From assembly GCA_006226415.1 (NCBI GenBank), contig SBGZ01000054.1, positions 1,554-65,553 on the forward strand: 64,000 nucleotides of DNA, given 5' to 3'. The stretch's first letter is position 1. Each line of letters starts with the position of its first letter. The DNA is from Alphaproteobacteria bacterium. Lineage in GTDB: Bacteria; Pseudomonadota; Alphaproteobacteria; M2410. Position numbers and translations under genes: made by a program. Shown here piece after piece: positions 1,294 through 18,273 of the stretch. A model generated the notes under the pieces. It was not told where the DNA came from. It did no database searches and was given only the letters and a program-made list of their open reading frames with translations.

Positions 1294-1340
1294 CGTCGTT
1301 GAAAACGGTCTGCAACATTTGGCAGTTCTTGCGATTAATT

Positions 1341-3704
1341 TTAAAAAAGACGACGCAGTGTGAGGCCGAACTCCTGGCCCCGTTGCGGGATAACGCTAAA
1401 GCCGCGCCAGCGACCATTTGGTCCGGAAGGGCTGACAAAGTCAACATAACGGATGATCGACACCGGCGTGTCATCGTCAAAGACATTCTTGCCATAGAAC
1501 TCAAGGCTGAGCGTATCGTTGAGGAGGCCGAGCTTAAAGTCGATCTTTAGACGGTCGCCGGTATGCGCCAGATTGTGAACTTGAGCGTATTTCTTGGACT
1601 CATAGCTTGCGCTCAGCCGGGCAAAACCTTGCCAACCAGATCTAAGCTGCCGGTCATACTGAACGAAAGTATTGGCAGAATGCTTAGGGGCATTCGGCAG
1701 TTCCCGGCCATGCAGGTTGCCGCCCTGTAGGAAATCCGGGTCGTCAAAACCGGAAAGTGCAGCTTCATCAACCGGGTCATTCCCCTTGTCGATTTCTGTC
1801 ATGGCAAGACCATAAGATAAGCCAAACTGCCAGTTCGCGTTGGGTTGATATCCGGCCTCAATCTCAAAGCCCTTGATCGTACTCTCCCCCAGATTGACGA
1901 TGATCGGGACTGATTTCACGGTCAGGTTGGTTTGCTGGATCTCGGCGATCGAGGTGAGCTGTTGGTCGGACCAGTCGATGTAGTAAATGTCCGCTTTGAA
2001 GAACAGCCCTTGCTCAGGCAGTCGGACTTTATAGCCGACCTCGTAGTTCCAGGCCTCTTCTTCATCAATAGTGGCGCGGCCGGTGGCATAGGCCTCCGCG
2101 AGAGCGTCTGGATGGACCGTGGATTTAAAGAAATCAGTATTAAAACCGCCGGGCTTGGTGCCTTTGGCAATATTGCCATAGACCAGACTTTCGGAGCGGA
2201 TCTGATAAGTTGCGGAAAAGCGCGGCGTAAAGCTTTCAAAACTTTCCTCTATTGAATCGGAGAGGAAGATCCGTTCTCGCGCATATCGCGCTTCAAGACT
2301 TAAGGTCAGGGCCTCGGTCGCATCAAATTCCAGATTGCCGAAGATGGCTGAATTCTTGATCCGTTCCGGGTCGCCTGCAGGGGCAAACCCCGCGTAGTGA
2401 GTTCGCCGCTGGTCGGTGTGCCTTTGGTCGTAATAATAAAGGCCGATGCCGCCGCGCAGGGCGCCGAGCTCTGGGCTCGAAAGGCGCAGTTCCGCTGCCT
2501 TGTCTTCGGTTTCCTTCAAGATGACGGTGCCATTGAAAAAGAACAGCGAAGGGCGCCCCCCGGTGTGGTCACTGTCTTCTGCAAGCTGATGCGTGTCCTT
2601 GCTCCAGGAGAGATTGCTGGTCAGGGTCCAGTCCCTCAGGTCATAGTCATACCGGACTGCCAAGCGGGAGGTTTCACGCTCGTTGCCAGGGCTCGCACCG
2701 GGCCCGGTTGAGCCGCCAAAGATAAGGCCCTGCTCGATGTCTGGGATGTTGAGCGACATGCTGCGTCCCGCAACACTCACCTCACCGCAGTAATAGCCGC
2801 GCGACAGCTCTGTTTCTGTTCCGGCGACGGGCATCTTGCAATTGAGCTCATCGGCCCCGATCGCATAGACCGCATAATGACTGTCGTCCATCGTGGTGTG
2901 ATGGGCGGTCAGGCTCAGGCGCGTATCTTCGGTCTCAAAAACGAGTTTACCCAAAACGTTTTGCGTCGACTCTTCTCCCAGCCTCGATCTATCCCCTTTT
3001 GTCGGAGCACCCGGGAAGATAGGCGAAGGAGGTTGGTCGGCCAGCGTGTTGCGCCACTCGGACCCAACAAACGCCTCTCCCGCATAGACAAGAAAGCTGA
3101 GCCGGTCCTCCAACAAGGGGCCGCTGATCAGCATTGAAAGCTGGTGCGAGCCATAACTCCCGGCCCCCACCGTCATGGAACCGGAAAGGTCATCGCCTGG
3201 ATCGCGCGTCACATAGTTCACAGCACCTGCCAGAGTGGAGCGCCCGTAAAGCGAAACTTGAGGGCCGCGCAGCACCTCAATTCTTTCAACCGCCCCCATT
3301 AGCTGGCCGGCAATTGCGCTTTCGGCGTTGACATAATTGCCATCAATGAAAAAGGCGGCATTTGGTGCGCCCAGCACATTGGATTGTCCGCGGATTGTGG
3401 GGCGCTCGGATTGACGCCCGTTGGAGGGGTTCATATTGAAATTGACGAGCGTGTCGGCAAGATCGTGAACATCCACCACTTCATTTACGGCAAGTTCGTC
3501 GCTTCCGATGGTCGTCACACTCATGGGAATGAGGAAGGCTGGCTCTTCTCTCTTGCGCGCGGTGATAATGATTTCGTCGATTATGCCGGGTCTCCACAAT
3601 GCAGAGGCCTCGGCGCCCACCGCGTTACCATGAGTGCCGATGATCGCAGTTGCGATGCTCAGTAAACCCAGCGTGACAGTTCGGCTAAGCAATTTTGTCT
3701 CCAA
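1341..3704 (-). CDS. TonB-dependent outer-membrane receptor
   Basis: 787-aa ORF with a signal peptide. Plug motifs DEIIITARKRE and IEVLRGPQVSLYGRSTLAGAVNYVT. Long beta-barrel region ending in a terminal aromatic (...LTLRRLF). Confidence 0.85.
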   Translation of the reverse strand: METKLLSRTVTLGLLSIATAIIGTHGNAVGAEASALWRPGIIDEIIITARKREEPAFLIPMSVTTIGSDELAVNEVVDVHDLADTLVNFNMNPSNGRQSERPTIRGQSNVLGAPNAAFFIDGNYVNAESAIAGQLMGAVERIEVLRGPQVSLYGRSTLAGAVNYVTRDPGDDLSGSMTVGAGSYGSHQLSMLISGPLLEDRLSFLVYAGEAFVGSEWRNTLADQPPSPIFPGAPTKGDRSRLGEESTQNVLGKLVFETEDTRLSLTAHHTTMDDSHYAVYAIGADELNCKMPVAGTETELSRGYYCGEVSVAGRSMSLNIPDIEQGLIFGGSTGPGASPGNERETSRLAVRYDYDLRDWTLTSNLSWSKDTHQLAEDSDHTGGRPSLFFFNGTVILKETEDKAAELRLSSPELGALRGGIGLYYYDQRHTDQRRTHYAGFAPAGDPERIKNSAIFGNLEFDATEALTLSLEARYARERIFLSDSIEESFESFTPRFSATYQIRSESLVYGNIAKGTKPGGFNTDFFKSTVHPDALAEAYATGRATIDEEEAWNYEVGYKVRLPEQGLFFKADIYYIDWSDQQLTSIAEIQQTNLTVKSVPIIVNLGESTIKGFEIEAGYQPNANWQFGLSYGLAMTEIDKGNDPVDEAALSGFDDPDFLQGGNLHGRELPNAPKHSANTFVQYDRQLRSGWQGFARLSASYESKKYAQVHNLAHTGDRLKIDFKLGLLNDTLSLEFYGKNVFDDDTPVSIIRYVDFVSPSGPNGRWRGFSVIPQRGQEFGLTLRRLF

Positions 3705-3716
3705 TGTTCTATCTAT

Positions 3717-4439
3717 CTACTTGCTCTTAATGGAAGAGCGGATGGCGGGAATATTTGAAATGATGACCTGATTACCTCGCGACTGCAGACCCAACTTGCG
3801 CAGCTTGGCCAGAGACCTCGAAAGCGTTTCTGGCTGCATGCCAAGTCGGCCCGCCAGAAGTGATTTTTCGATGGGCAAATAGATCGTTGCCTCTTTTGCG
3901 CCCTTGGGGCATTGGCTCAATAGAAAATTGGCCAACCTCTCCGTGGAGGACTGGACGGACAATTGCTCAATCTGTCTGACCAGGCTGCGCATGTGCCGTG
4001 ACATGGACGCGACAATGGTCAGGGCATACTCGGAGTTTTCCTTGATGGCTCGAAAAACCGAAGACGCAGGAATAATGAGTAGACGGCAGGAGGTCACGGT
4101 GATGGCGTTGACCGGGAACCCTCCCTTTGAAAACATGGCGGCTTCAGCGAAGGTTTCTCCCTTGGCGAAGACAGAGATGATGCTTTCCTGTCCCTCAATT
4201 GACTGGCGCGTAAGTTTAACCCAGCCTTCCAGGATCAGATAGAAATGATCCGCTGGCTCCCCCCGTTCAAATAAGGTTGATCGGCGATCGACCGACTTGA
4301 TATGGCCATCGCAAATGAGAGAAACAACAGCCTCGTCGTCCAATTCTTCAAAAAGCGTCGAAGCTTTGACGAGCTGAAAATCATCTTCCCGCAACCCGCC
4401 TGTACGTTTTAACGGATCAATTCTGGAAAGCTCTATCAT
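3717..4439 (-). CDS. Crp/Fnr-family transcription regulator, Dnr/NnrR-like (no N-terminal Cys cluster)
   Basis: 240 aa with a cNMP-binding-like beta-roll (FERGEPADHFYLILEGWVKL). C-terminal HTH carries the E--SR recognition motif (PETLSRSLAKLRKLG). It lacks the FNR Cys cluster. Sits inside the nirS-linked gene string. Confidence 0.85.
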   Translation of the reverse strand: MIELSRIDPLKRTGGLREDDFQLVKASTLFEELDDEAVVSLICDGHIKSVDRRSTLFERGEPADHFYLILEGWVKLTRQSIEGQESIISVFAKGETFAEAAMFSKGGFPVNAITVTSCRLLIIPASSVFRAIKENSEYALTIVASMSRHMRSLVRQIEQLSVQSSTERLANFLLSQCPKGAKEATIYLPIEKSLLAGRLGMQPETLSRSLAKLRKLGLQSRGNQVIISNIPAIRSSIKSK

Positions 4440-4537: not shown

Positions 4538-4948
4538 CTAATTTGCCTCGGTTCTAAACCGGTGAATTTCCGCATCAAAGGTTTTGAAATGATTGGAAAA
4601 CCATAAGGCAAGCCGCTCTTCAAGGCGTTGTGGCAAGGTGCCGCATTCTTCTTCGGGCACCTCATCCATCATGTCCAACAAGGTGTCAAGAAGCGCTTCG
4701 TGATCGGCCTTGTGATCAGCAAAACCAGGGTAATTGGACTGGACCATTTCCTGCTCTTCAAGCGCAAAATGGGCGGAGGTCTGGGCGTGTATTTCCCCCA
4801 AATGCTCTCGCACCGCTTCTTCGCGCTGGGGAGAGGGGGCGTCCGTCGCCATGGCCGTCAGAGCCCGGTTGATGAGGTCAATCAGCTCGCGGTGCTCATG
4901 GTCAATGGCCTCAATGCCAATTCTATATTCGTCTTTCCATTCTAGCAT
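4538..4948 (-). CDS. Bacteriohemerythrin-like protein
   Basis: 136 aa. MLEWKDEYRIGIEAIDHEHRELIDLIN, HFALEEQEM and HKADHEALL give the H-HxxxE-H-HxxxxD iron-ligand pattern of hemerythrins. Confidence 0.8.
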   Translation of the reverse strand: MLEWKDEYRIGIEAIDHEHRELIDLINRALTAMATDAPSPQREEAVREHLGEIHAQTSAHFALEEQEMVQSNYPGFADHKADHEALLDTLLDMMDEVPEEECGTLPQRLEERLALWFSNHFKTFDAEIHRFRTEAN

Positions 4949-4974
4949 GTCGCTTATGCCTCTATTGAGTTGTT

Positions 4975-5463
4975 CTAACGGATCGAGAGGCCGTATTGGT
5001 CAGTGAAGTCGATGACAAGGTGTTGACGAGACGTAAGGTCCACATGAACGGTTTCGCTCAGGTCAAATCCCTCCGCGCGTCTGCTGTGCCGAAAATTGAC
5101 TGTCAATTTATGCGTCCCAATGGGCACCGGAAAAGACTCATAAAGGACCGAGGGACCATCATCTCGAAAGCCCGAAGGGGGAACCTCTTTGTCGAAGAGA
5201 ACCTGGTCGCCGTCGAAAAGCTGCACATAGAGAGGGGCCCGCGCCCGTTCACAAATTTCCTTGCGCTTCATGTTCTGCGGCAGCTTGGCGATTTCTTCCT
5301 GAGTGAGTTGTCGGCAGGCCTCCATGCGATCACCATAAAGGGTAAACGTCAGGCGAATCATGGCCTGATCCTCCGGCATGCGCGGATAAATCGGAAACTG
5401 TGACAGGACCCCGAAGAGTCCGGCCAGGACCACGTAGACCAGGGTGGCTCGGATAGGGTTCAT
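4975..5463 (-). CDS. Membrane-anchored hypothetical protein
   Basis: 162-aa ORF with one N-terminal TM (LVYVVLAGLFGVLSQF). ATGA start/stop overlap with the upstream gene at 5460-5463. I recognise no motif. Confidence 0.5.
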   Translation of the reverse strand: MNPIRATLVYVVLAGLFGVLSQFPIYPRMPEDQAMIRLTFTLYGDRMEACRQLTQEEIAKLPQNMKRKEICERARAPLYVQLFDGDQVLFDKEVPPSGFRDDGPSVLYESFPVPIGTHKLTVNFRHSRRAEGFDLSETVHVDLTSRQHLVIDFTDQYGLSIR

Positions 5464-6983
5464 TCCGTGACCGCCTCCTCGTCGGGCTGTTTGCTCATCT
5501 CTGTTGTCAGGGCAATCCCCGGATCACCGCTCGAACCGGCATTGACGATGCGCCATTTCTCATCATTAACCCGGCCTCTCAGGCGCGGGTCGCGCTGACG
5601 GGCAAAACGCTCTCTTGTCCATTGAAGCCCGGTTCTGTTGAAACACTCTCCGTCGCCGCAAGCCGCAAGGACAACTTCGTCCGCCAATCCCTGTGCCAGA
5701 GTGTAATCAAGAAAAGCCGGCGAGAACATCGCCACGCAAGGCACTTCCAGTTCCACAATCGCCGGGTCGTCTTCGGTATTGGTCTTACTGGCGTGAGAAC
5801 AGCGCACCACGAGCCGTTTGGGGGTGTCACCGCTGCCCGTGCAAACCGAAGTGAGCCGGTCGCGCAGCTCAAGCAATGTGTACCCTTCAAGTTCAATGCC
5901 GGGCACAAGCCGCTCGCCGCGCCGGTAGGGCGATCCGGTCGGGCAGGAGCCCGCACAAATACCGCAGCCAACGCAGAGGTTGGGATTAACGGCGGCCTGC
6001 TGCCGATAGGGCTTGCCATCTGTCCGTGGCACCATCGAGATCGCCGAGTAGGGACAGTCTTTCAGGCACCATTCGCAGCCATTGCAATTGTCGAGATGGA
6101 CGGTGGCAATCTGCCGCTCCGGCTTCGTCCATAAGGCCGGCAGACCCAAAAGCGCGATGGTAAAACCGGCAGCCATGAACCAGACGACCCCCGCTGGCAG
6201 ATAGTCAAGCAGAGGGTAAAGGGCCAGATAATACCAATCAAGGTGCAGGTCCGCAGGGACCTTGGAAAGATCCGCCGCCGCGTGACTGGTGGCCGGGCTG
6301 ATCAGGGAAAGAGCCGTCAGCATCCCAAGAAAGCCGAACGCGGCCATGCGCGGCAGGTTGACTTTGGGTTTGGTAATTCTCTGCACATGGATCCACATGA
6401 GCAAAAGTAGAAACAGGGGCACGAAAATATGGATGAAAATCATCAGACTGAAGAAGCGGTCATCCACCCGATCCGGCGACACAAAATTACGCGCGATGGG
6501 CTCTGAGAAGATGGGCAGCCAGTCGAGCCACTCTGCGGATTTGATGGCGATATATTGGGCAAGTTCGTCCCATACAAGCCAGTAGCCGGTAATGCCCGCC
6601 GCATAGAGAAACAGGATCAGAGGAACCCCTGTCATCCAGCTAAAGGCCCGCGGCCCCGTCAGCCGGCCGTAGGCGAGCTCTCGAAAGAGGTGCAGAAAGA
6701 GGAAGAAGACCATGGCATCGGAGGCGTAGCGATGGAAACTGCGCAACAAGCCGCCCAAGTACCACTGGTCATGGGTGAGATATTCCATCGACTCGTAAAC
6801 ACCGGTGATGCTGGTATCAAAGGCGATGTAGAGATAGATCCCAGAGGCCGCGACGATCCAGTAACAGAAATATCCATAGGCGCCGAGCTGGCACAAGGGA
6901 TTGAGATCAGGACCGAAAGCCTTGTCCAAAAAGCTTTCAAGCCGTCCAAAGCCGCGTTTTGCTATGTTCATCTTGTCGCTCAA
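5460..6983 (-). CDS. Fusion protein: di-heme cytochrome b (bc1/b6-type N-terminal domain) + 2x[4Fe-4S] ferredoxin + MvhD/FlpD-like domain
   Basis: 507 aa. Two H-x13-H pairs lie in TM helices (RSFHRYASDAMVFFLFLHLFR and IHIFVPLFLLLLMWIHVQR). Two CxxCxxCxxxCP motifs follow (CNGCEWCLKDCP, CVGCGICAGSCP). The C-terminal block VPCVAMFSPAFLDYTLAQGLADEVVLAACGDGECFNRTG resembles the methyl-viologen-reducing hydrogenase delta subunit. Confidence 0.75.
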   Translation of the reverse strand: MSDKMNIAKRGFGRLESFLDKAFGPDLNPLCQLGAYGYFCYWIVAASGIYLYIAFDTSITGVYESMEYLTHDQWYLGGLLRSFHRYASDAMVFFLFLHLFRELAYGRLTGPRAFSWMTGVPLILFLYAAGITGYWLVWDELAQYIAIKSAEWLDWLPIFSEPIARNFVSPDRVDDRFFSLMIFIHIFVPLFLLLLMWIHVQRITKPKVNLPRMAAFGFLGMLTALSLISPATSHAAADLSKVPADLHLDWYYLALYPLLDYLPAGVVWFMAAGFTIALLGLPALWTKPERQIATVHLDNCNGCEWCLKDCPYSAISMVPRTDGKPYRQQAAVNPNLCVGCGICAGSCPTGSPYRRGERLVPGIELEGYTLLELRDRLTSVCTGSGDTPKRLVVRCSHASKTNTEDDPAIVELEVPCVAMFSPAFLDYTLAQGLADEVVLAACGDGECFNRTGLQWTRERFARQRDPRLRGRVNDEKWRIVNAGSSGDPGIALTTEMSKQPDEEAVTE

Positions 6984-7828
6984 GCGTCCTGTTTCAAGTT
7001 TCTAAATTCACGGATGAGAAAGATCGCAACAAGAGAAAGGCACAAAAATCCGATGATGATCGTCAGGATAAAGGAATAATCGAACTGATAGCGACCGGTA
7101 TTCGGGTTGTAGATTGTGCAGAACAGCTGGACCTGATTGAGGATGCCGTTAAGGCTTGAGAAATTGGCTGCCGCGCCGAAGACCAGACGTTTCAGGGGCT
7201 CAACGAAGTTAGGCGTGGGCAAGGTCTGGCCATAAATCTGGTAGTAGACCTGACCGGAGCGGTCAAGCAGGGTGACCTGCGCCAGATGATCAAACCCGTA
7301 AGGGGATTTTTCGTACAGAAACCCAAGATCCCGCGAGAGGCTCGCGATCGTTGCCTCGTCGGCACTTAAAAAGAGCCAATTGTCTCTGGAAACACGGTGG
7401 ATGCCTTTGTAAGCGTTCATTTGCCGCGGCGTGTCGACCTGCGTATCAAAGCCGATGGTTAGAATGACGAGATTTTCTTCGCCAATCGTCCGGTCTGAGA
7501 TTTTGACAACAGACTTCAGGCTCTCCACGATCATCGGACAGGTGTGGGAACAGGAAGTGTAGATGAGGTTGATGGCCACGGGTGTACCGCGAAAATCGCT
7601 CAAGGAAACAAGATGGCCATCGCTATCAGTAAACTGATAATCACCAACCTCCCTGCCGATGGCGCCCTGCGAGATATCCAAGGCTGAATCGCGGTCAAAG
7701 GCAAGACCGGCTCGAGCGGTATGGGCACCCTCGTGATCTTGCGCATTGGCGGGTGCATCCACAAGCACGGCGCAGAGCATCAACGCACAAAGGCCTCTGA
7801 GGGTGGCTTTAAAAGACAATCCAGGCAT
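6980..7828 (-). CDS. SCO1/SenC-family copper chaperone (thioredoxin fold) with C-terminal TM
   Basis: 282 aa with a signal peptide. CxxxC motif CSHTCP plus a downstream His (FDHLAQVTLLD). 4-nt overlap with the downstream gene. Confidence 0.8.
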   Translation of the reverse strand: MPGLSFKATLRGLCALMLCAVLVDAPANAQDHEGAHTARAGLAFDRDSALDISQGAIGREVGDYQFTDSDGHLVSLSDFRGTPVAINLIYTSCSHTCPMIVESLKSVVKISDRTIGEENLVILTIGFDTQVDTPRQMNAYKGIHRVSRDNWLFLSADEATIASLSRDLGFLYEKSPYGFDHLAQVTLLDRSGQVYYQIYGQTLPTPNFVEPLKRLVFGAAANFSSLNGILNQVQLFCTIYNPNTGRYQFDYSFILTIIIGFLCLSLVAIFLIREFRNLKQDA

Positions 7829-8672
7829 CCAGAAAGACTCCGGCGAACAATGCCGCTAATTGTATGAGAGACGCGAAAAAATTGCGCATGGCTGTGGCCG
7901 GCCCCGGATTGCGAACGTGCAAGAGACTGTGCCAGAGAAAATAGGCGCCCCCGCCCGCGGCAAAGACAAGATAGATCGGACCAAGACCGATAAAGCCCGG
8001 CACAAGCGAGAGGCCAACGAGAAGGGCCGTGTGGGCCAGAATAACCCAGGCACTCTTCTGCGCCCCGATGGTCATGGGCAGCATCGGAATATTCGCGCGC
8101 TCATAGTCCGCCTTGAGCGCACTGGCCAGGCTCCAAAAGTGCGGCGGCGTCCAAAGAAACAGAACGATCGCCAACACAAAAGGAACGGGGGCTTCAGGAT
8201 TGATGGCGGCAGCGCCGGCGAGCACCGCAAAAGAGCCCGACAATCCCCCGACAACGATGTTGAGAGGGGTGCGGGGTTTCAGCCAGACCGTATAGACAAT
8301 GCAGTAAAAGAAAGCGCCAAGAAACAAATAGGCCGCGACCCAATGATTAAACACAAAGCTCGAAATCACGACCGCAGCTGCGAGCAACGCACAAATTGAT
8401 CCCATCCAATAGGCATTCGCCGTAAAGGCACCGGTCACAAAGGGTCGGTTGCTGGTGCGTTTCATCAAGGCATCAGTGTCACGCTCGACATACTGATTGT
8501 AAGCCCCCGCGGCGGCTGACGAAGCAAAGACACAAAGTGCCAGCACGACGATTTCGCTTGCCGTCAGACCGATGCCAGGGGTGGCGATCATGCCCATCAT
8601 CGCCGTGAGGGTGATGAAAGCGCTGATACGCACTTTAAATACGGACGCCAGCATTTTTCCCATACTACTCAT
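7809..8672 (-). CDS. ctaB: Protoheme IX farnesyltransferase (heme O synthase)
   Basis: UbiA-family polytopic protein with motif NQYVERDTDALMKRTSNRP. Start moved to ATG at 8672 (MSSMGKMLAS...) because the longer ORF would overlap the end of subunit I. Confidence 0.85.
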   Translation of the reverse strand: MSSMGKMLASVFKVRISAFITLTAMMGMIATPGIGLTASEIVVLALCVFASSAAAGAYNQYVERDTDALMKRTSNRPFVTGAFTANAYWMGSICALLAAAVVISSFVFNHWVAAYLFLGAFFYCIVYTVWLKPRTPLNIVVGGLSGSFAVLAGAAAINPEAPVPFVLAIVLFLWTPPHFWSLASALKADYERANIPMLPMTIGAQKSAWVILAHTALLVGLSLVPGFIGLGPIYLVFAAGGGAYFLWHSLLHVRNPGPATAMRNFFASLIQLAALFAGVFLDAWIVF

Positions 8673-8717: not shown

Positions 8718-8740
8718 GGGAGGTTCGCCTGAAACCTCCC
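8718..8740 (-). other. Intercistronic hairpin directly after the subunit I stop codon
   Basis: gggaggtt (8718-8725) and aacctccc (8733-8740) are perfect complements with a 7-nt loop. No clean U-tract follows, so this is more likely an mRNA processing or stability element than a terminator. Confidence 0.4.
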
Positions 8741-10440
8741 TACGACATCGGCCAAACCGTCGCCAGATATTTCCAGTTGATGAAGTAGTAAAGGACAAAG
8801 GCGATAAAGAAGACCGAGATCAACACAACTGTGCCCGGCAACTGAAGCTCGGTTTCACTGCCGTAGCTGGACACAGCTGCCACGCCTTCCGGAGTGGCTT
8901 GTACTTCGGACGTTTCCTTCAATGACTTACCAAAGAAGACAGTGCCGACGGCGACAACGATGAACATAACACCGCCCGCTGCCGCCATAATGGCTGCAAG
9001 CCCGTTCAGACCCAGCATAGCCAGAGCCATCGGCGGATATTCAAACGACAGCGTCGCGTCCGCGAAGGTGATATCCCAGTGCCGCCGGGCGACCCCAAGC
9101 GTCCCCGCGCCCATCATAAAGAGCGAGATACCTGCCACGCCCAGGCCGAAGACGTAGGGCTGCCAGCGCGCCATTTTGGGGAACATCAGCTCTTTCTGGA
9201 AGATCAGCTCCAACACCGGATAGGTAATCGCCATGAAGGCGAGTGTGGTGCCCGCAACGACGGTTCCGTGGAAGTGCCCGGGAACGTAAAGGGTGTTGTG
9301 GGTGATGATGTTGAGCTGCTCCGTGCCCATCATGACACCGGAGATACCGCCCAGGAAGCCGAACAGAACCAGCGAGATGAACATGCCCGCAAAAGCCGGG
9401 TTGTCCCAAGGCGCCTTGCGCAGCCATTCGAAGATCCCATTGGTATAGCCTTTGCGCCGCTGCGCGGCTTCAATGGCGCCGGGAACCGTCATGCCGTGGA
9501 TCATCGATCCCAGAACCGCCAGATACATGGCGTAGGACGTATTGAAGATCTTCCACTCTGAACTCAGACCCGGTTCAACCAGCAAGTGGTGAGCACAGGC
9601 CAGCTGCAGGAAGAGAATATACATCAGGAAAGCCAGACGGCTGACCTTTTCCGACAGCGGCTTGGCGCCAAGCACCATGGCCGCAATGGCATACCAGACG
9701 GCAACCTGCGCCGAAACGTTGATCTGCTGTGATGAGTGCCCCATGCCCCACCAGATCAATTTGTAGATCAACGGATCAATGTGTTGAATGATCCCCAGGG
9801 ACCAAAGCCATGTGGGCACAAGAATAATCGCCCCGGAGACGATTGTGAAAACAGCGATGATGGCGGCCGTCACGGCGGCAAATGTCACAAGCGGCACCGA
9901 GCCCTCATAGGTTTTTTCTTCCTTGGCGATGACCAGCGTTGCAAAGAACAATATGCAGCCGATCAGAGCCCCGACCGCAAAGAGGATTAACCCCAGATAA
10001 AAATGTGGGGCCGCTTGCATGGGCACATAAGACGTGAACATCACGCTGGAATTGCCTTGCAATACGGCGATGTTGGCAATAACGGCGCCGACAATCATCA
10101 GCCAAAACCCAACCCATCCCAGCTTTGGCATGGCCAAGCGGGAGTTCAGCAGCACCGCTGAGCAGAAATAGAGCAGCGCCATTTCGAAAAAGAGGATCCA
10201 GAACAAAAGCACATCCGCGCCATGCGCCGTCAGCGCCAGATAAAATAATTCATCTGACAGCAAGTGGACCGCTGGCCAGCGTGTGAGAGCAACCAGCAGA
10301 CCAAAAAGACCACCGATGGCCAGAAAGACAATGGCCACAACGGCATTGGCTTTGATGAGTTTTTCAGCTGCCAGATCGACCTTAAGGCCAGTTTTGGGGC
10401 AAGTTCGGAATTGGGTTTGGGCGTTCATCGATATCTCCAC
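8740..10440 (-). CDS. Heme-copper oxidoreductase subunit I, ba3/B-family-like, lacking the cross-linked Tyr (candidate NO reductase)
   Basis: 566 aa, colinear with remembered Thermus ba3 CbaA blocks: LTAHG, WWGMGH, ACAHH, APWDNPAF, VPGHFHG. Six canonical His are retained (H73, H235, H284, H285, H389, H391). Thermus GHPIVY reads GHSSQQ here. Confidence 0.9.
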   Translation of the reverse strand: MEISMNAQTQFRTCPKTGLKVDLAAEKLIKANAVVAIVFLAIGGLFGLLVALTRWPAVHLLSDELFYLALTAHGADVLLFWILFFEMALLYFCSAVLLNSRLAMPKLGWVGFWLMIVGAVIANIAVLQGNSSVMFTSYVPMQAAPHFYLGLILFAVGALIGCILFFATLVIAKEEKTYEGSVPLVTFAAVTAAIIAVFTIVSGAIILVPTWLWSLGIIQHIDPLIYKLIWWGMGHSSQQINVSAQVAVWYAIAAMVLGAKPLSEKVSRLAFLMYILFLQLACAHHLLVEPGLSSEWKIFNTSYAMYLAVLGSMIHGMTVPGAIEAAQRRKGYTNGIFEWLRKAPWDNPAFAGMFISLVLFGFLGGISGVMMGTEQLNIITHNTLYVPGHFHGTVVAGTTLAFMAITYPVLELIFQKELMFPKMARWQPYVFGLGVAGISLFMMGAGTLGVARRHWDITFADATLSFEYPPMALAMLGLNGLAAIMAAAGGVMFIVVAVGTVFFGKSLKETSEVQATPEGVAAVSSYGSETELQLPGTVVLISVFFIAFVLYYFINWKYLATVWPMS

Positions 10441-10443
10441 AAC

Positions 10444-11013
10444 TTAGTCAGTGACGTAAATTCGCCCGAGCATGTTGTGATGCCCGATGCCGCAAAATTC
10501 ATTACAGATAACCGAATACTGTCCGGCTTTGTCCGGGGTAATCGTCATCACCAATTCATAACCAGGGTGAACCTGGATGTTGATATTGCTGGGTTGAAGC
10601 GAAAACCCATGCTGCCAATCCTGTGAGGAAAGATGCAGCCGATAGGTCTTGTCCTTTTCAAGCTCAAGGATGGGATACCACTCCCAAAGCCGGGCGATCA
10701 TATAGATGTCGCTGCCAGCAGGTGGATGAACAACCGGTATACCGGTGTCGCCTTCCTCTCGAACCTGATAGGTTGTCGTAAAATTTTCAACCCTTTCAGC
10801 ATAGACCTCAGGGTCGATGCGATAGGATTCGTTGGAAAGATTCTGTTCGCCCGCGATATGCCAATAGATCATGGCGAAGAACATGATCAGACCCCAGACA
10901 AAAGCAACCAGGATCCAAATCAGCTCCTGTTTGCCGATACGCTCATTCCACCAAAGTGGATTTGTAGGACTGTGAATAGCCATGCGCGGCCTCCCATCGT
11001 TTTGGGTGCTCAA
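10444..11013 (-). CDS. Heme-copper oxidoreductase subunit II with CuA centre
   Basis: 189 aa with one TM plus a cupredoxin domain. CuA ligands DWQHGF ... CNEFCGIGHHNM are present. Only 3 nt separate it from subunit I. Confidence 0.85.
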   Translation of the reverse strand: MSTQNDGRPRMAIHSPTNPLWWNERIGKQELIWILVAFVWGLIMFFAMIYWHIAGEQNLSNESYRIDPEVYAERVENFTTTYQVREEGDTGIPVVHPPAGSDIYMIARLWEWYPILELEKDKTYRLHLSSQDWQHGFSLQPSNINIQVHPGYELVMTITPDKAGQYSVICNEFCGIGHHNMLGRIYVTD

Positions 11014-11079: not shown

Positions 11080-11093
11080 TTGACCAAAGTCAA
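11080..11093. promoter_or_regulatory. FNR/Dnr-type box TTGACCAAAGTCAA
   Basis: Perfect palindrome TTGAC-N4-GTCAA, 67 nt upstream of the subunit II start codon. Confidence 0.6.
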
Positions 11094-11110: not shown

Positions 11111-11305
11111 CTAGCCTGCGACAATTTGTATAACTTTGAAAGCCAATACGGCGCTCACAAGAAGAATGCCAAAAAAGATAAGCGAGCGATCAGCAAAGGG
11201 TTTGCCGCGTCTTCTTTCCATAACGCCAAGCAACCCGTTGGCAAAGAAATAAAGCGCAACCGCGACCACTGTAAAAATCAGAAATTGCAAGGGTGCGTGC
11301 TCCAT
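11111..11305 (-). CDS. Small two-TM membrane protein (hypothetical)
   Basis: ORF 11111..11350; the likely start is MEHAPLQ at 11305. Two hydrophobic helices. No recognisable family. Confidence 0.4.
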   Translation of the reverse strand: MEHAPLQFLIFTVVAVALYFFANGLLGVMERRRGKPFADRSLIFFGILLVSAVLAFKVIQIVAG

Positions 11306-11405: not shown

Positions 11406-11419
11406 TTGATTATGGTCAA
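11406..11419. promoter_or_regulatory. FNR/Dnr-type box TTGATTATGGTCAA
   Basis: TTGAT-N4-GTCAA sits 96 nt upstream of the nirS GTG, in the divergent intergenic region. Confidence 0.6.
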
Positions 11420-11502: not shown

Positions 11503-13401
<1,899 letters not shown>

Positions 13402-13450: not shown

Positions 13451-14686
13451 ATGGGGGTTAAAATGAAAACGAAAAGAAATAGAAAACACTTTTTATGCGC
13501 CCTGTTGGCTTCCGCTACATTGGTGTCTTTGGCGCCCTCTTCATATGCGGGAGAGGAAAACAACCTCGCCGACAATATTATTTTGGACCTGAGGCTCCGT
13601 GGTGAGTGGGTCGAACAAGATGGTAAGCCTGACAATGCCGAAGCATTGACCCTGCGCACTCGGTTTGGCTTCAAGACCGATGAGATCAGCGGTTTTCAGT
13701 TTTTGGTAGAAGGCGAAAATGTCACCCATATCATGGATGACTTTGATGACACCATTAACGGCATGGGCAACTACCCGGTGGTGGCAGATCCCGAAACCAC
13801 CGAGCTTAATCGCCTTCAGGTAAGCTATACCGGCCTTGAGAAAACCAAAATCGTCGTCGGTCGTCAGCGCATTATTCTGGGGGATGCCCGTTACGTTGGT
13901 AATGTGGGGTTCCGTCAGAACGAGCAAACCTTTGACGCGGCCTTGCTGGCCTTCAGCCCGGATGATCATGTCTCCTTCACCTATGCCTATGTGGCCAAGG
14001 TCCGCCGCGTTTTCGGCGACGATAGCGCGGTCGGCGAATTTGACATGGACACCCATATTGTCGAGCTCGCCTGGAAGGGAACGCCCGGCACGCTGACCGG
14101 CTTTGCCTATCTGGCTGATGTCGACGATGCTGCCGCAGCCTCTAACGCGACCTATGGCGCGAATTGGAGTGGAGCTCTTCAAGACACAGGCGATTTGTCG
14201 GTGAAATATAAGTTCGAATATGCCCGGCAAACGGACTACGGCAACTCACTGGACGACTTTGAGCTTTCCATGATGCGTGGTGAGTTCATCATATCCAATG
14301 GAACCCTCTCCGGCGGATTGGGGGTTGAGGTGCTGGAAGGCAACGGTGCGCGCGGATTTGCAACACCGCTGGCAACCCTGCACAAATTCCAGGGCTGGTC
14401 AGATGTTTTCCTGACCACACCCTCCGATGGTATTCGCGATCTCTATCTGACCGCTGGCTGGAAAGCGCCCGGCGTTACAGCCATCAAAGGGTTTAATGTC
14501 GGCTTGGTCTATCACAACTATGAAGCTGACAGTGGCGGCGCCAATCTGGGTTCGGAGTGGGGCGCTGTTGCTACCGCTAAGCTGACCGACAAGACGTCGC
14601 TTCAACTCAAATATGCCGACTATGACGGTGCGGGCGGTTATGCAAGTCGCACCAAGACCTGGCTCGCGCTCTCCTGGGTCTATTAG
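13451..14686 (+). CDS. Outer-membrane beta-barrel porin (alginate-export/AlgE-like pattern)
   Basis: 411 aa with a signal peptide ending SSYA. Alternating amphipathic strands. Blocks LRLRGEWVEQD and LTLRTRFGFK. Ends with an aromatic (...LSWVY). Confidence 0.55.
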   Translation: MGVKMKTKRNRKHFLCALLASATLVSLAPSSYAGEENNLADNIILDLRLRGEWVEQDGKPDNAEALTLRTRFGFKTDEISGFQFLVEGENVTHIMDDFDDTINGMGNYPVVADPETTELNRLQVSYTGLEKTKIVVGRQRIILGDARYVGNVGFRQNEQTFDAALLAFSPDDHVSFTYAYVAKVRRVFGDDSAVGEFDMDTHIVELAWKGTPGTLTGFAYLADVDDAAAASNATYGANWSGALQDTGDLSVKYKFEYARQTDYGNSLDDFELSMMRGEFIISNGTLSGGLGVEVLEGNGARGFATPLATLHKFQGWSDVFLTTPSDGIRDLYLTAGWKAPGVTAIKGFNVGLVYHNYEADSGGANLGSEWGAVATAKLTDKTSLQLKYADYDGAGGYASRTKTWLALSWVY

Positions 14687-14888
14687 AAAGTTTTAGGAAT
14701 GTGGTCCTGTCCTTGACCATGCGCCTTGAGGGTGTTGGCCGACTTGGAGAGTCGGTCGGCCATCACCCTTCAGGTGTCTTCGGGGCAGATTTTTTTAACT
14801 TGAAGGGTGCATTTTGAAACGGCTTTACTGCATCGCAGGGCCAAACCGCCTTACGGTTCTTGGCTGGTCGCCAGCGCCTTACATCTCT

Positions 14889-15710
14889 TCAAAGGGTTTT
14901 CTCCGTCGCCGTAATGGTTACGGCTGACGTGGCATCGCGGGTGGGTATCTCCGCCCGCCAGGCAAACAGAAGAGAGTTTCGCACGCCCGCACTTGCTTCA
15001 ATATATTCGCGGCCGTGATAGCTGGTCCGCTCCGGCAACGAATTGACCGCAAAGGCATAACCGCTGTTGGCTCTGTAGGGGAACCGCTTGACCTCTCGAA
15101 ACCCTTTGCCCAGCAGACGCCGATGCAAAGGTTCTCGCACGTAAAGCGAAGTCCCCAGATCTTCTTGATCTTCACTTTCCGGCAAATAAAACTGCATGGT
15201 GACAATCCGAGGATAACCATCCGGATGAGGCTTGATGCGATATTCCGCCGTATCCCGCGTCAGGGTGCCGCCGACAAAGGCATCATACCCGACAACATCG
15301 TCGACGGGTACATTCAACCGCAGAGACAAGTCCTTTTTAAGTTTTTCAAAAACCAGACGCTTCATGGTTTCTGAAGAAATGGCCCGTTTGATCTCGGTCC
15401 AAAAGTCGCGGAGGTCGTCATCGAACTTTGCGATGTTTTCGGGTGTCAGATCGATCCGGTCACGTGTTGAAGTGCCATCCGCGCGCACCCATTTCTTCAG
15501 ATTGATGGGGGCATAAAGAGAAACCGGTGGCAATTTGGTCCTGAGCATCTGGTACACATCGTCGGGCCAAATGTTCTCCACATAAATATGTTCATATGGT
15601 TCTTCAAAGGTTGTCGCGTCTGCAATCACCGACTTCCAGTGTTCAATAATACGCGCCGCCAGCCCTTCATAGGACGGGTTTGTCTCTACGTAATTCTCGG
15701 ATGTGGTCAC
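14889..15710 (-). CDS. Hypothetical protein, possible 2OG-Fe(II) oxygenase fold
   Basis: 273-aa ORF with an HxD...H pattern (RIKPHPDGYP ... TSYHGRE). The assignment is weak. Confidence 0.45.
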   Translation of the reverse strand: MTTSENYVETNPSYEGLAARIIEHWKSVIADATTFEEPYEHIYVENIWPDDVYQMLRTKLPPVSLYAPINLKKWVRADGTSTRDRIDLTPENIAKFDDDLRDFWTEIKRAISSETMKRLVFEKLKKDLSLRLNVPVDDVVGYDAFVGGTLTRDTAEYRIKPHPDGYPRIVTMQFYLPESEDQEDLGTSLYVREPLHRRLLGKGFREVKRFPYRANSGYAFAVNSLPERTSYHGREYIEASAGVRNSLLFAWRAEIPTRDATSAVTITATEKTL

Positions 15711-16029: not shown

Positions 16030-17220
16030 GTGTCAGATTACCATAGCGCCTATGAATTAGTGTCCGCGGTCAAACCTGCCGGACCCGTTTTCTGCCAACG
16101 TCCCCATGCCATTAGAGCGGCGGCCCGTTGGTTCAAAATGAATTTTCCTGGACGGTGTCTCTACGCCGTAAAAGCCAATCCCTCGCCGTGGGTCATTTCG
16201 ATCCTCGCCGAAGAGGGTCTGTCGTTCGACGTGGCATCTCTTGATGAGGCCCGCCGAGTACGCGCCCTTGCGCCCGATGCCATGTTGGGCTTCATGCACC
16301 CGATCAAGGCCTATGAAGCCATTCGAGAGGCCTATTTTGATTTGGGCATCCGCACATTCTCGCTCGATAGCTTGAGTGAGCTGCAAAAGATCATGGCCGC
16401 GACTGACAATGCGAAGGATCTGACCCTTTGTGTGCGCCTGCGCGTCTCTAGCGAGCTTTCCAAGATCTCCCTGGGTGCCAAATTTGGCGCTGGCCACGAG
16501 GAAGCCTCACTGCTTTTGGCGGCCGTGCGCCAAAAGGCGGACCGCCTGGGCGTCTGTTTCCATGTCGGCAGTCAGGCCATGCACCCCGGCGCTTTTGCCG
16601 CCGCCATTGATCTTGTGGAGCGCGCCATCATTGAAGCCGGTGTGATTGTGGATGTTCTGGATGTGGGCGGCGGCTTCCCCGCGCCTTATCCAGGCTATAT
16701 GGCGCCGCCCCTTGAAGACTATGTGGCGATGATCACCGCGAGATTTGAAGAGCTCCTGGTCACCAACAATTGTGAGCTTTGGTGCGAACCCGGTCGGGCC
16801 CTGACGGCGGAATCCATGTCCCTTGTCGTGCGTGTTGAAGCGCGCAAAGGGCATGAGCTCTACATCAATGACGGTGTCTACGGCGCGCTCTTTGATGCCG
16901 GCCAATTGGGCTGGACTTATCCCGTGCGGCTTTTGCGCCCCCGGATCAATCCTTCCGAGACCGGCTTCTCCTTCTATGGGCCAACCTGTGACGACTATGA
17001 TCACATGAAGGGCCCATTCTATCTGCCCTCTGACGCGGGCGTTGGAGACTATATTGAGATCGGCAACATCGGGGCCTATGGCGCCGCCATGGCCACAAGA
17101 TTTAATGGTTTTGGTGCCTTTGAGGAATTTCTTGTCGAAGACGCACCCATGCTGACAGCCTATGGCCGTATGGCCCAGCTCCCTGTTCCCTTTACCCAAA
17201 CGGAAGAAAACAATGCTTGA
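16030..17220 (+). CDS. Group IV PLP-dependent decarboxylase (ornithine/lysine/arginine decarboxylase-like, alanine-racemase fold)
   Basis: GTG start 10 nt after GGAGG. YAVKANPSPWV carries the PLP lysine. Also FHVGSQ, DVGGGFP and an EPGRAL-type block. Confidence 0.85.
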   Translation: MSDYHSAYELVSAVKPAGPVFCQRPHAIRAAARWFKMNFPGRCLYAVKANPSPWVISILAEEGLSFDVASLDEARRVRALAPDAMLGFMHPIKAYEAIREAYFDLGIRTFSLDSLSELQKIMAATDNAKDLTLCVRLRVSSELSKISLGAKFGAGHEEASLLLAAVRQKADRLGVCFHVGSQAMHPGAFAAAIDLVERAIIEAGVIVDVLDVGGGFPAPYPGYMAPPLEDYVAMITARFEELLVTNNCELWCEPGRALTAESMSLVVRVEARKGHELYINDGVYGALFDAGQLGWTYPVRLLRPRINPSETGFSFYGPTCDDYDHMKGPFYLPSDAGVGDYIEIGNIGAYGAAMATRFNGFGAFEEFLVEDAPMLTAYGRMAQLPVPFTQTEENNA

Positions 17221-18265: not shown

Positions 18266-18273
18266 TCTTACAA

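What the first reader, a model, noticed from the sequence alone, without database searches (positions are those of the whole stretch)
8740..11013. ba3/B-family-like heme-copper oxidase with the cross-linked Tyr replaced by Gln, head-to-head with nirS: candidate non-canonical NO reductase
Seen in the sequence:
- Subunit I is colinear with my remembered Thermus thermophilus ba3 CbaA and keeps all six metal-ligand His (H73, H235, H284, H285, H389, H391).
- The helix VI motif GHPIVY reads GHSSQQ here (codons 9738..9724, CAC TCA TCA CAG CAG), so the His-Tyr cross-link partner is Gln239.
- The following K-channel-lining stretch FWLLPAY reads INVSAQV.
- Subunit II keeps a complete CuA site (H...CNEFCGIGHHNM).
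- No norCB or qnor is present in the window, while nirS and a Dnr-type regulator flank the genes.

Established knowledge: the cross-linked Tyr is the hallmark of O2-reducing HCOs. Several NOR families derived from oxygen reductases and lacking it (eNOR, sNOR, gNOR, bNOR) have been proposed, and only a few enzymes have been characterised.

Inference: this enzyme is the NO reductase partner of NirS, with eNOR-like being the closest concept I know. I cannot confirm family membership without an alignment.
Basis: partly seen in the sequence, partly recalled or inferred. Interest (0 to 1): 0.8.

Follow-up and report, generated by a model that had tools for sequence, protein, structure and literature searches.

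The report
eNOR nitric oxide reductase beside NirS
The two genes encode an ordinary member of the already described eNOR family of nitric oxide reductases, but in this lineage the enzyme's small membrane subunit has been fused onto the neighbouring nitrite reductase NirS, which suggests the two enzymes are physically joined.

Summary
Subunit I (8740-10428, minus strand) keeps all six metal-ligand His. Gln239 sits exactly where T. thermophilus ba3 has the cross-linked Tyr237. Subunit II keeps a full CuA site. No other heme-copper oxidase is in the window.

This is not a new kind of enzyme. Gln at that position is the published diagnostic of the eNOR family, whose Rhodothermus marinus member reduces NO and not O2. 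The motif GHxxQQ[IV]N is invariant in 123 proteobacterial and 119 haloarchaeal homologues, including Natronomonas pharaonis. In a tree these form one clade (90% bootstrap), apart from true ba3 oxidases. At least 590 species genomes carry such a gene. The operon (subunits II and I, heme O synthase, SCO1, cytochrome b/Fe-S protein, 162-aa protein, hemerythrin) is conserved in most of 80 related loci. Tyr274 is not a migrated cross-link Tyr, because the Tyr-keeping sister clade has it too.

One new point. A roughly 50-aa single-helix protein is encoded directly upstream of subunit II in nearly all relatives. It is the positional counterpart of ba3 subunit IIa. Here it is missing from that place and is fused in frame to the N-terminus of NirS, replacing the signal peptide. 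Three independent assemblies show this. It supports a NirS-eNOR partnership.

The parts
8740..10428 (-). eNOR subunit I (562 aa from ATG 10428; the ORF extends to GTG 10440). It has the six His ligands, Gln239 in place of the cross-link Tyr, and the motif GHSSQQIN.
10444..10983 (-). eNOR subunit II: one transmembrane helix plus a cupredoxin domain with a complete CuA site (179 aa from ATG 10983; the ORF extends to TTG 11013).
   Evidence: present in 80 of 80 related loci
11111..11305 (-). Conserved 64-aa ORF with two hydrophobic segments, upstream of subunit II. Its role is unknown; it may be a further small subunit or an assembly factor.
   Evidence: (tblastn hits in 39 related loci, almost all just upstream of the operon)
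11515..11676 (+). Subunit-IIa-like segment (residues 1-54 of the NirS ORF). It is homologous to the stand-alone protein of about 50-60 aa that is encoded directly upstream of eNOR subunit II in relatives. It has one hydrophobic helix, and N-in/C-out topology is inferred.
11515..13401 (+). Cytochrome cd1 nitrite reductase NirS (628 aa). Its cleavable signal peptide is replaced by the IIa-like helix plus an acidic linker of about 30 aa.
   Evidence: (Cytochrom_D1 E 3.7e-146, cytochrome c domain)
7809..8672 (-). Heme O synthase (CtaB/CyoE), 287 aa from Met43 of the ORF.
   Evidence: TIGR01473, 234 bits, above the cut-off; 59 of 80 loci
6980..7828 (-). SCO1/SenC copper chaperone.
   Evidence: 75 of 80 loci
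5460..6983 (-). Membrane protein with a cytochrome b6-like domain fused to two [4Fe-4S] motifs and a FlpD/MvhD-like domain. It is a conserved accessory gene of this eNOR operon type.
   Evidence: 70 of 80 loci; compare 10.64898/2026.01.22.701106
4975..5463 (-). Conserved 162-aa protein with an N-terminal hydrophobic segment and no family match.
   Evidence: 69 of 80 loci
4538..4948 (-). Bacteriohemerythrin.
   Evidence: NF033749, 93.7 bits, above the cut-off; 65 of 80 loci
3717..4439 (-). Crp/Fnr-family (Dnr-type) transcription regulator.
   Evidence: also adjacent in L081, L084 and L086-L088
11406..11419 (.). FNR/Dnr-box-like palindrome TTGATTATGGTCAA between the divergent operons. This is suggestive only.
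   Evidence: (4 matches in the window, 2.5 expected by chance)
11080..11093 (.). Second palindrome, TTGACCAAAGTCAA, between the 64-aa ORF and subunit II. This is suggestive only.
   Evidence: read from the sequence

Best explanation
Genes 8740-10983 encode subunits I and II of an eNOR-family nitric oxide reductase.

Proposed mechanism, by homology with the characterised R. marinus eNOR:
- Electrons enter from a periplasmic donor through CuA in subunit II.
- They pass to the low-spin heme (His73/His391) and then to the binuclear site. That site is the high-spin heme (His389) plus a metal held by His235, His284 and His285.
- There 2 NO + 2 e- + 2 H+ give N2O + H2O.
- Gln239 replaces the redox-active Tyr, so four-electron O2 reduction is not supported.
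- Protons probably arrive from the cytoplasm through a retained K-type channel (Tyr250, Ser263, Ser312, His315, Thr318), which would make the step electrogenic.

The downstream genes supply heme O/A-type cofactor (CtaB) and copper (SCO1). They also include a conserved module of unknown role: a cytochrome b/Fe-S protein, a 162-aa protein and a hemerythrin.

NO is supplied by the divergently encoded NirS. In this lineage NirS carries the enzyme's own small single-helix subunit (IIa-like) as its N-terminal membrane anchor. NirS is therefore most likely docked on the eNOR complex, so that NO is made next to the enzyme that consumes it.

Shown: the sequence features, clade membership, synteny and the fusion. 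Inferred: the metal identity, NO activity, proton uptake and docking of the fused helix.
For: (1) Gln239 aligns with ba3 Tyr237 and all six His ligands are present.

(2) Gln at this site is the published eNOR diagnostic (PMC8756737 Table A4). The R. marinus eNOR reduces NO and cannot reduce O2 (PMC11214002).

(3) GHxxQQ[IV]N is invariant in 123 close homologues. It is also invariant in 119 haloarchaeal homologues, including Natronomonas pharaonis, a genus in which eNOR was first described.

(4) In the NJ tree the Gln sequences form one clade (90% bootstrap), separate from canonical ba3 enzymes (93%). The best structural matches of the model are ba3 oxidases.

(5) Subunit II has a CuA site and the counterparts of the ba3 K-channel residues are kept, as described for eNOR.

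(6) The gene order subunit II - subunit I - heme O synthase - SCO1 matches what is called the common eNOR operon. It is conserved in 59-80 of 80 genome loci.

(7) The IIa-like protein is stand-alone and abuts subunit II in about 78 of 80 genome loci, in 67 of 67 metagenome loci with enough sequence and in N. pharaonis.

(8) In the window and in two further assemblies (L083, L084) that protein is fused to NirS. The fused segment is 49/54 identical between the two organisms, against 7/22 for the linker. Orthologous NirS proteins have ordinary signal peptides.

(9) A Dnr-type regulator and FNR-like boxes are present.
Against: - No activity, metal or heme data exist for this protein.
- The characterised R. 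marinus and Magnetospirillum sequences could not be retrieved, so the link to them runs through the diagnostic residue, the Natronomonas clade and operon structure.
- The tree is a simple neighbour-joining tree on 32 sequences.
- The curated eNOR HMMs were not available.
- Only 12 of 80 related loci have a true nirS within 10 kb, so the family is not generally tied to nirS by position.
- No ctaA is in the cluster, although eNOR is reported to use heme As.
- The window has no heme d1 biosynthesis genes, so NirS maturation depends on genes not seen here.
- A canonical norB elsewhere in the genome cannot be excluded.
- The fused helix might serve only as an export signal or membrane anchor.
Confidence: 0.8

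Rival explanations
1. It is an eNOR-family enzyme, but it is not hard-wired to NirS. On this reading it scavenges NO generally, or works under microoxic conditions, and the IIa-like segment on NirS now serves only as a signal anchor or export signal without docking into the enzyme.
For: Most relatives (68 of 80 loci) have no nirS within 10 kb. The operon carries a hemerythrin and a Dnr-type regulator, which would also fit an NO/O2 stress response. The closest relatives at 78-81% identity lack a IIa gene next to subunit II, so the enzyme may tolerate its absence there.
Against: The fused segment, including its cytoplasmic tail, is far better conserved (49/54) than the adjacent linker (7/22), which is unlike a mere signal peptide. 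Its 22-residue hydrophobic stretch has no conserved AXA cleavage site. No separate IIa copy exists in the 64-kb window. Fusion of IIa to a redox partner has a precedent in halocyanin (PMC3128077).
Confidence: 0.12
2. It is still an O2 reductase of the B family that uses a different, relocated Tyr (Tyr274, Tyr303 or Tyr306), as C-family oxidases do.
For: Tyr274 is invariant. Tyr303 and Tyr306 on helix VIII are invariant and specific to the Gln clade. Their positions could not be checked in three dimensions, because no coordinates are available and the model has pLDDT below 50 around model residues 281-303 (window numbering 285-307).
Against: Tyr274 is equally conserved in the GHxxQY sister clade that keeps the canonical Tyr, so it predates the loss. 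It lies 10 residues before the HH pair. From my own knowledge the C-family Tyr lies 6 residues before it. Murali et al. report no migrated Tyr in models of these families, and they report no O2 reduction by the R. marinus eNOR.
Confidence: 0.04
3. The enzyme carries out some other chemistry at the heme/metal site (for example a different N-oxide or an unknown substrate), and NO reduction is incidental.
For: Only one eNOR has been assayed, and its turnover is low at 0.68 NO per second. The conserved cytochrome b/Fe-S, 162-aa and hemerythrin module has no explained role.
Against: The fusion to NirS and the Dnr-type regulator point to NO as the substrate. eNOR transcripts rise under denitrifying conditions in Ferrigenium, and eNOR is the dominant expressed nor in estuarine sediments.
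Confidence: 0.04

Closest known systems
eNOR family (Rhodothermus marinus Rmar_0161; Magnetospirillum 'cytochrome a1-like hemoprotein'; Natronomonas pharaonis enzyme)
   Same: - Gln in place of the cross-link Tyr.
- Three His for the second metal.
- A CuA subunit II.
- A K-type channel with the Ser309 counterpart.
- Heme O synthase and SCO1 in the operon.
- A small single-helix gene upstream of subunit II.
- The same clade as the Natronomonas protein.
   Different: - The window protein is 38-39% identical to the haloarchaeal representative P0133. Identity to the R. marinus enzyme is unknown.
- There is no ctaA in the cluster.
- This proteobacterial operon type adds the cytochrome b/Fe-S, 162-aa and hemerythrin genes.
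- The IIa-like subunit is fused to NirS instead of standing alone.
B-family cytochrome ba3 oxidase of Thermus thermophilus (PDB 1EHK, 3S8F)
   Same: It is the best sequence and fold match among solved structures (E about 1e-44, TM about 0.75). The helix order is colinear. The six His ligands, the CuA subunit II with a single helix, a IIa-type third subunit gene upstream of subunit II, and most K-channel positions are shared.
   Different: The substitutions are Tyr237 to Gln, Val236 to Gln, Trp239 to Asn, Tyr244 to Val and Thr312 to His. The protein sits in a separate clade. It is therefore not expected to reduce O2.
A clade of heme-copper enzymes with GHxxQY[IV]N (P0131, P0132, P0136, P0143), name not established here
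   Same: These are the nearest relatives outside the Gln clade (37-43% identity). They share Gln238, Asn241, Tyr274 and His315.
   Different: They keep the cross-link Tyr and lack the Gln-clade-specific Tyr303, Tyr306 and Trp55. They are presumably O2 reductases.
bNOR / sNOR, cNOR / qNOR, gNOR
   Same: All are heme-copper superfamily NO reductases that lack the cross-link Tyr. bNOR and sNOR are also related to the B family and have a CuA subunit.
   Different: The diagnostic residue at His+4 is Asn in sNOR and bNOR, Glu in cNOR and qNOR, and Gln here. gNOR replaces an active-site His with Asp. cNOR uses a cytochrome c subunit instead of CuA (Table A4).
Halocyanin-subunit IIa fusions of haloarchaeal ba3 oxidases, and the NirS-cNOR complex of Pseudomonas aeruginosa
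   Same: In Halobacterium and Haloarcula the IIa helix is fused to halocyanin, the oxidase's redox partner (PMC3128077). From my own knowledge, NirS and cNOR of P. aeruginosa form a complex (Terasaka et al. 2017). Both are precedents for attaching a partner to the enzyme.
   Different: Here the helix is at the N-terminus of NirS, the producer of the substrate, not at the C-terminus of an electron donor. The association is encoded by a gene fusion rather than by non-covalent contacts. It has not been shown experimentally.

Membership tests
eNOR | Gln at the position of the cross-linked Tyr (His+4 on helix VI) | tested here: met
   Gln239 lies opposite ba3 Tyr237. Gln occupies this column in 61/61 proteobacterial and 60/60 haloarchaeal sequences sampled. 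The feature is defined in PMC8756737 Table A4.
eNOR | Three His ligands of the second metal and three heme His ligands retained | tested here: met
   His235, 284 and 285, and His73, 389 and 391, align with the ba3 ligands.
eNOR | Groups phylogenetically with recognised eNOR sequences, apart from B-family O2 reductases | tested here: met
   In the NJ tree with 200 bootstraps the Gln clade, including N. pharaonis P0357, has 90% support and canonical ba3 has 93%. Caveats: the method is simple, and the R. marinus and Magnetospirillum references were not available.
eNOR | CuA-containing subunit II | tested here: met
   The ligands H...C..EFC...H..M align with ba3 subunit II.
eNOR | Conserved K-type proton channel like that of the B family, including the Ser309 counterpart | tested here: met
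   Ser312, Tyr250 and Ser263 are kept, His315 replaces Thr312, and position 318 is Thr or Ser. Tyr244 is lost. The feature is described.
eNOR | Operon with heme O/A biosynthesis and SCO1 genes | tested here: met
   ctaB and SCO1 follow subunit I. This is called the common arrangement. ctaA, present in many eNOR operons, is absent here.
eNOR | Score above threshold against the curated eNOR HMM (github ranjani-m/HCO) | not testable with these tools
NCBIfam has no eNOR model; the best hit, CtaD, scores 62.6 bits against a cut-off of 670.
eNOR | NO reductase activity without O2 reductase activity; heme As in both heme sites | not testable with these tools
   This needs biochemistry. It has been shown only for the R. 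marinus enzyme.
B-family O2 reductase (ba3 type) | Cross-linked His-Tyr cofactor (Tyr at His+4) | tested here: not met
   The residue is Gln239.
C-family-like arrangement (Tyr relocated to helix VII) | A conserved Tyr able to reach the helix VI His, found only where the canonical Tyr is lost | tested here: inconclusive
   Tyr274 is also invariant in the Tyr-keeping sister clade, and it is 10 rather than 6 residues before the HH pair. Tyr303 and Tyr306 are specific to the Gln clade, but their positions could not be measured because no coordinates were available and the model is weak there. Published models report no migrated Tyr.
cNOR / qNOR | Glu at His+4; cytochrome c subunit or fused quinol domain; no CuA | tested here: not met
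   The residue is Gln, and a CuA subunit II is present. The nearest solved relatives are ba3 oxidases, not NOR structures.
sNOR / bNOR | Asn at His+4 | tested here: not met
   The residue is Gln239 (Table A4).
gNOR | One active-site His replaced by Asp; subunit II without CuA ligands | tested here: not met
   All three His ligands and the CuA ligands are present.

The most novel reading that the evidence does not exclude
In this lineage nitrite reductase and NO reductase form an obligatory, genetically hard-wired complex. The eNOR's single-helix subunit IIa no longer exists as a separate protein. It is the N-terminal anchor of NirS, so each eNOR recruits a NirS through a structural subunit, and NO is produced within the reach of a linker of about 30 residues from the enzyme that reduces it. 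This would be the first case in which a heme-copper enzyme's core subunit is shared with the enzyme that makes its substrate.
Probability: 0.45. Interest if true: 0.65.

Novelty: new member of a known kind. Interest (0 to 1): 0.4.

Why it matters
The enzyme itself adds little. eNOR is named, has been characterised once, and is now annotated routinely. It was the most abundant and most highly expressed nor type in one estuarine survey. What the locus does show is how easily these genes are still labelled 'cytochrome c oxidase subunit I' or 'cbb3-type oxidase' in public records.

The NirS fusion is the useful part.
- It is independent, gene-fusion evidence that this enzyme family works with nitrite reductase.
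- It argues that the small upstream ORF is a real subunit.
- It offers a natural construct for testing whether NO is handed directly from Nir to Nor.

The fusion is hidden in databases, because gene callers start this NirS at a Met inside the helix.

Tried and rejected
- Reference sequences for the R. marinus and Magnetospirillum eNORs. The paper's supplements are not held. Accession searches found nothing. The one genome scan returned only the 80 closest proteobacterial MAGs.
- Organism names from cluster look-up. They were mostly absent.
- The AlphaFold model. It reached only pLDDT 70.9, with values below 50 around the HH pair and the start of helix VIII. No coordinates are exposed, so distances from Tyr274, Tyr303 or Tyr306 to the active site could not be measured. 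The fold search only confirmed ba3 as the nearest fold.
- A first Biopython bootstrap run timed out. It was replaced by a numpy version.
- The sigma-70 promoter scan was not enriched over shuffles. The FNR-box search was not significant window-wide, with 4 matches against 2.5 expected. Both are treated as suggestive only.
- A metagenome scan with exact peptides of the fused N-terminus found nothing.
- A second scan with the small-protein alignment found at least 539 copies, and all 80 examined stand alone. No further fusion was found.
- A literature search for such a fusion returned only irrelevant papers.
- I considered and rejected sNOR/bNOR, gNOR, cNOR/qNOR and a relocated-Tyr oxidase (see the membership tests).
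Full report
**Observation.**
The minus-strand ORFs 10444-11013 and 8740-10440 encode a cupredoxin subunit II and a COX1-type subunit I. Codons 9738-9724 read CAC TCA TCA CAG CAG. phmmer against solved structures finds Thermus thermophilus ba3 subunit I as the best match (E about 1e-44). It aligns GHSSQQINVSAQV with GHPIVYFWLLPAY, so Gln239 lies opposite the cross-linked Tyr237. In a 130-sequence alignment His73, 235, 284, 285, 389 and 391 match the six ba3 ligands. Subunit II aligns with ba3 subunit II through all the CuA ligands. Pfam and NCBIfam scans of the large ORFs across the 64 kb found no other heme-copper oxidase or NorB. From the homologue gene calls, the likely true starts are ATG 10428 for subunit I and ATG 10983 for subunit II.

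**Family.**
The literature settles what a Gln at this site means.
- Schwartz et al. use Gln at the Tyr position to define eNOR. Their table lists Y for oxygen reductases, E for cNOR and qNOR, N for sNOR and CuANOR, and Q for eNOR (PMC8756737).
- Murali et al. purified the Rhodothermus marinus eNOR. It reduces NO at 0.68 per second and cannot reduce O2. It contains heme As, has a CuA subunit and has a K-type channel like the B family (PMC11214002).

I tested membership as follows.
- All 123 close homologues retrieved carry GH[SA][SA]QQ[IV]N.
- The library of 50% representatives yielded more distant full-length relatives.
- One of these, P0133, is haloarchaeal. Its 119 relatives all have GH[GS][ST]QQIN. 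They include the 'cox-type terminal oxidase subunit I' of Natronomonas pharaonis, a genus named as an original source of eNOR.
- In a neighbour-joining tree with 200 bootstraps the Gln sequences (window clade, P0124, haloarchaea) form one clade at 90%. Their sister is a small clade with GHxxQY that keeps the Tyr. Canonical ba3-type enzymes form a separate clade at 93%.
- The model of subunit I (pLDDT 70.9) finds ba3 oxidases as its best structural matches.
- A genome scan found at least 590 species representatives with W[GAI][MLV]GH[SMG][ST]QQ relatives. The 80 best are alpha- and gammaproteobacterial MAGs (Woeseiaceae, Rhodospirillales, Steroidobacteraceae and others) at 68-77% identity.
- Recent surveys annotate such genes as eNOR with the published HMMs. 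One found eNOR to be the most abundant and most highly expressed nor in estuarine sediments (PMC13592168).

The enzyme is thus a new member of a known family. I could not include the R. marinus or Magnetospirillum sequences or run the curated HMMs.

**The relocated-Tyr test.**
Tyr274 lies 10 residues before His284/His285. It is invariant in the Gln clade, but it is equally invariant in the four GHxxQY sequences that still have the canonical Tyr. Canonical ba3 enzymes have Phe or Leu at that position. It therefore predates the loss of the Tyr and is not a replacement for it. From my own knowledge, the C-family Tyr is 6 residues before the HH pair. Two Tyr on helix VIII, Tyr303 and Tyr306, are invariant and specific to the Gln clade. 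I could not place them in space, because the tools expose no coordinates and the model is poor there. Murali et al. state that models of these families show no migrated Tyr.

**Proton channel.**
Of the ba3 K-channel residues, the counterparts of Tyr248, Ser261 and Ser309 are kept (Tyr250, Ser263, Ser312). Thr312 is His315 throughout the Gln and GHxxQY clades. Thr315 is Thr or Ser. Tyr244 is Val.

**Operon.**
Six genes follow subunit I:
- heme O synthase (7809-8672);
- SCO1/SenC (6980-7828);
- a cytochrome b6-like protein fused to two [4Fe-4S] motifs and a FlpD-like domain (5460-6983);
- a 162-aa protein with no family match (4975-5463);
- a bacteriohemerythrin (4538-4948);
- a Crp/Fnr (Dnr-type) regulator (3717-4439).

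The table gives how many of the 80 related genome loci have each gene in the same order.

| Gene | Loci (of 80) |
|---|---|
| Subunit II | 80 |
| SCO1 | 75 |
| Cytochrome b/Fe-S protein | 70 |
| 162-aa protein | 69 |
| Hemerythrin | 65 |
| ctaB | 59 |

Several of these loci are truncated by contig ends. A 2026 preprint on Ferrigenium straubiae calls 'eNOR II, eNOR I, heme o synthase, sco1, scaffold protein' the common eNOR operon and notes cytochrome b/[Fe-S] genes in its own operon. The N. pharaonis cluster has a UbiA-type gene, a small ORF, subunit II and subunit I, but none of the cytochrome b/Fe-S, 162-aa or hemerythrin genes. A true nirS (at least 44% identity) lies within 10 kb in only 12 of the 80 loci, and a Dnr-type gene in 18.

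- Residues 3-54 of the window's NirS ORF (11515-13401, 628 aa) match a separate small ORF at 46-69% identity. In about 78 of 80 genome loci that ORF sits immediately upstream of subunit II on the operon strand, ends with a stop, and is followed by the subunit II start.
- The protein database holds 49 such proteins of 52-84 aa, all annotated as hypothetical, and none is fused.
- An alignment shows an invariant core, P-x-M-Q-R-x-L-D-N-P-F-x-L-L-x-x-G-x-x-x-P-x-x-x-Y-x-x-W-G-x-x-E.
- A metagenome scan found at least 539 further copies. In all 80 examined the protein ends 38-42 residues after the MQR motif. In 67 of 67 loci with enough sequence, subunit II follows within -12 to +75 nt.
- The 49-aa ORF upstream of the N. 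pharaonis subunit II is a detectable homologue (33% identity, E 1e-4).
- This gene is the positional counterpart of ba3 subunit IIa (cbaD). Prunetti et al. found cbaD directly upstream of subunit II in B-type enzymes whose subunit II has one helix. They list a 5.8-kDa candidate for Magnetospirillum magneticum AMB-1. They also report IIa fused to halocyanin, the redox partner, in some haloarchaea (PMC3128077).
- In the window the small gene is absent upstream of subunit II, and the only copy in 64 kb is the NirS N-terminus.
- The same fusion occurs in an NCBI MAG (GCA_006226305.1, L083) and in an independent Logan assembly (SRR8389941, L084). Both come from an organism whose subunit I is 94% identical to the window's. 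It is therefore not an assembly artefact.
- Between the two organisms the IIa-like part is 49/54 identical, the following linker 7/22, and the mature NirS N-terminus 39/49.
- Orthologous NirS proteins in related loci have ordinary signal peptides ending in A-x-A, followed by the conserved 'TTPG..Y.PSLDVL' region. The window's NirS has that region from about residue 84.
- The segment has a charged N-terminal tail, a 22-residue hydrophobic stretch and an acidic C-terminal linker. This fits N-in/C-out topology. Soulimane et al., as cited, describe that polarity for subunit IIa. It places NirS in the periplasm.
- A GAGGAG lies 8 nt before GTG 11515.
- Gene callers start this NirS at Met44, inside the helix (585 aa in L083), which hides the fusion.

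**Regulation.**
A TTGATTATGGTCAA palindrome (11406-11419) lies between the divergent operons, and TTGACCAAAGTCAA (11080-11093) precedes subunit II. The window-wide count is not above chance, so these sites are only suggestive.

**Mechanism and status.**
Shown:
- the active-site substitutions and clade membership;
- the CuA site and the retained channel residues;
- the conserved operon;
- the IIa-NirS fusion and its conservation.

Inferred:
- NO reduction with no O2 reduction, by homology to the one characterised eNOR;
- the identity of the metal and the heme;
- uptake of protons from the cytoplasm;
- docking of NirS on eNOR through the fused helix.

**Rivals.**
- An eNOR that is not physically tied to NirS (0.12).
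- A relocated-Tyr oxidase (0.04).
- Some other chemistry (0.04).

**Verdict.**
The unusual feature of the locus is the capture of the enzyme's small subunit by NirS.

Noticed in passing
window 11515-11676 (+), within nirS 11515-13401; also L083 8751-8912 and L084 1147-1308: The N-terminal 54 residues of NirS are homologous to the small single-helix protein (subunit-IIa-like) that is encoded directly upstream of eNOR subunit II in nearly all relatives. Here it replaces the NirS signal peptide and is absent from its usual place.
   Followed up: yes
L083 7026-8783 (gene call of 585 aa) against ORF start 8912: Public gene calls start this NirS at a Met inside the transmembrane helix. The fusion is therefore invisible in protein databases, where only stand-alone proteins of 52-84 aa were found.
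   Followed up: yes
window 11111-11305 (-): A 64-aa ORF with two hydrophobic segments lies upstream of subunit II. tblastn finds it in 39 of 80 related genome loci and in L086-L088. Its function is unknown.
   Followed up: partly
window 4538-6983 (-): A module of three genes follows SCO1 in 65-70 of 80 proteobacterial eNOR loci but is absent from the Natronomonas cluster. The genes are a cytochrome b6-like protein fused to 2x[4Fe-4S] and a FlpD-like domain, a 162-aa protein, and a bacteriohemerythrin. No ctaA is present, although eNOR is reported to need heme A-type cofactors.
   Followed up: partly
P0131, P0132, P0136, P0143 (library representatives): These heme-copper enzymes form the sister clade to the Gln clade. 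They have the motif GHxxQY[IV]N: they share Gln238, Asn241, Tyr274 and His315 with eNOR but keep the cross-link Tyr. They look like the oxygen-reducing relatives closest to eNOR.
   Followed up: partly
window subunit I residues 303 and 306 (codons about 9534-9523): Tyr303 and Tyr306 on helix VIII are invariant in proteobacterial and haloarchaeal eNOR sequences. They are absent from the Tyr-keeping sister clade and from ba3 enzymes. Their position relative to the active site could not be determined.
   Followed up: partly
L086 952-4329, L087 1336-4713, L088 3-2101: In the relatives at 78-81% identity the operon is preceded by NosR-like and ApbE genes. The IIa-like gene is missing upstream of subunit II and within 6 kb, and its location in those genomes is unknown.
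   Followed up: no
P0188, P0198, P0208, P0266 (library representatives): These are distant heme-copper-like proteins with FH[VI][NY]HY in place of GHxxxY and YH in place of the HH pair. The family was not identified here.
   Followed up: no
window 13451-15710 and the rest of the window: nirS is followed by a 411-aa outer-membrane-type protein and a 273-aa protein, neither with a family match. No heme d1 biosynthesis genes (nirE/F/D/L/G/H/J/N) were found among the ORFs scanned in the window.
   Followed up: partly
window 37628-40672 (+): A 1014-aa ORF combines a CofC-like guanylyltransferase domain with radical-SAM CofG/CofH-type domains. It appears to be a fused F420-biosynthesis protein.
   Followed up: no
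window 16030-19164 (+): A polyamine gene set: a PLP-dependent decarboxylase, 1,9-bis(guanidino)-5-aza-nonane synthase (568.8 bits, above the cut-off) and agmatinase.
   Followed up: no
window 160-3704: A TonB-like protein and a TonB-dependent receptor lie next to the Dnr-type regulator. The same arrangement occurs in L081 and L084.
   Followed up: no
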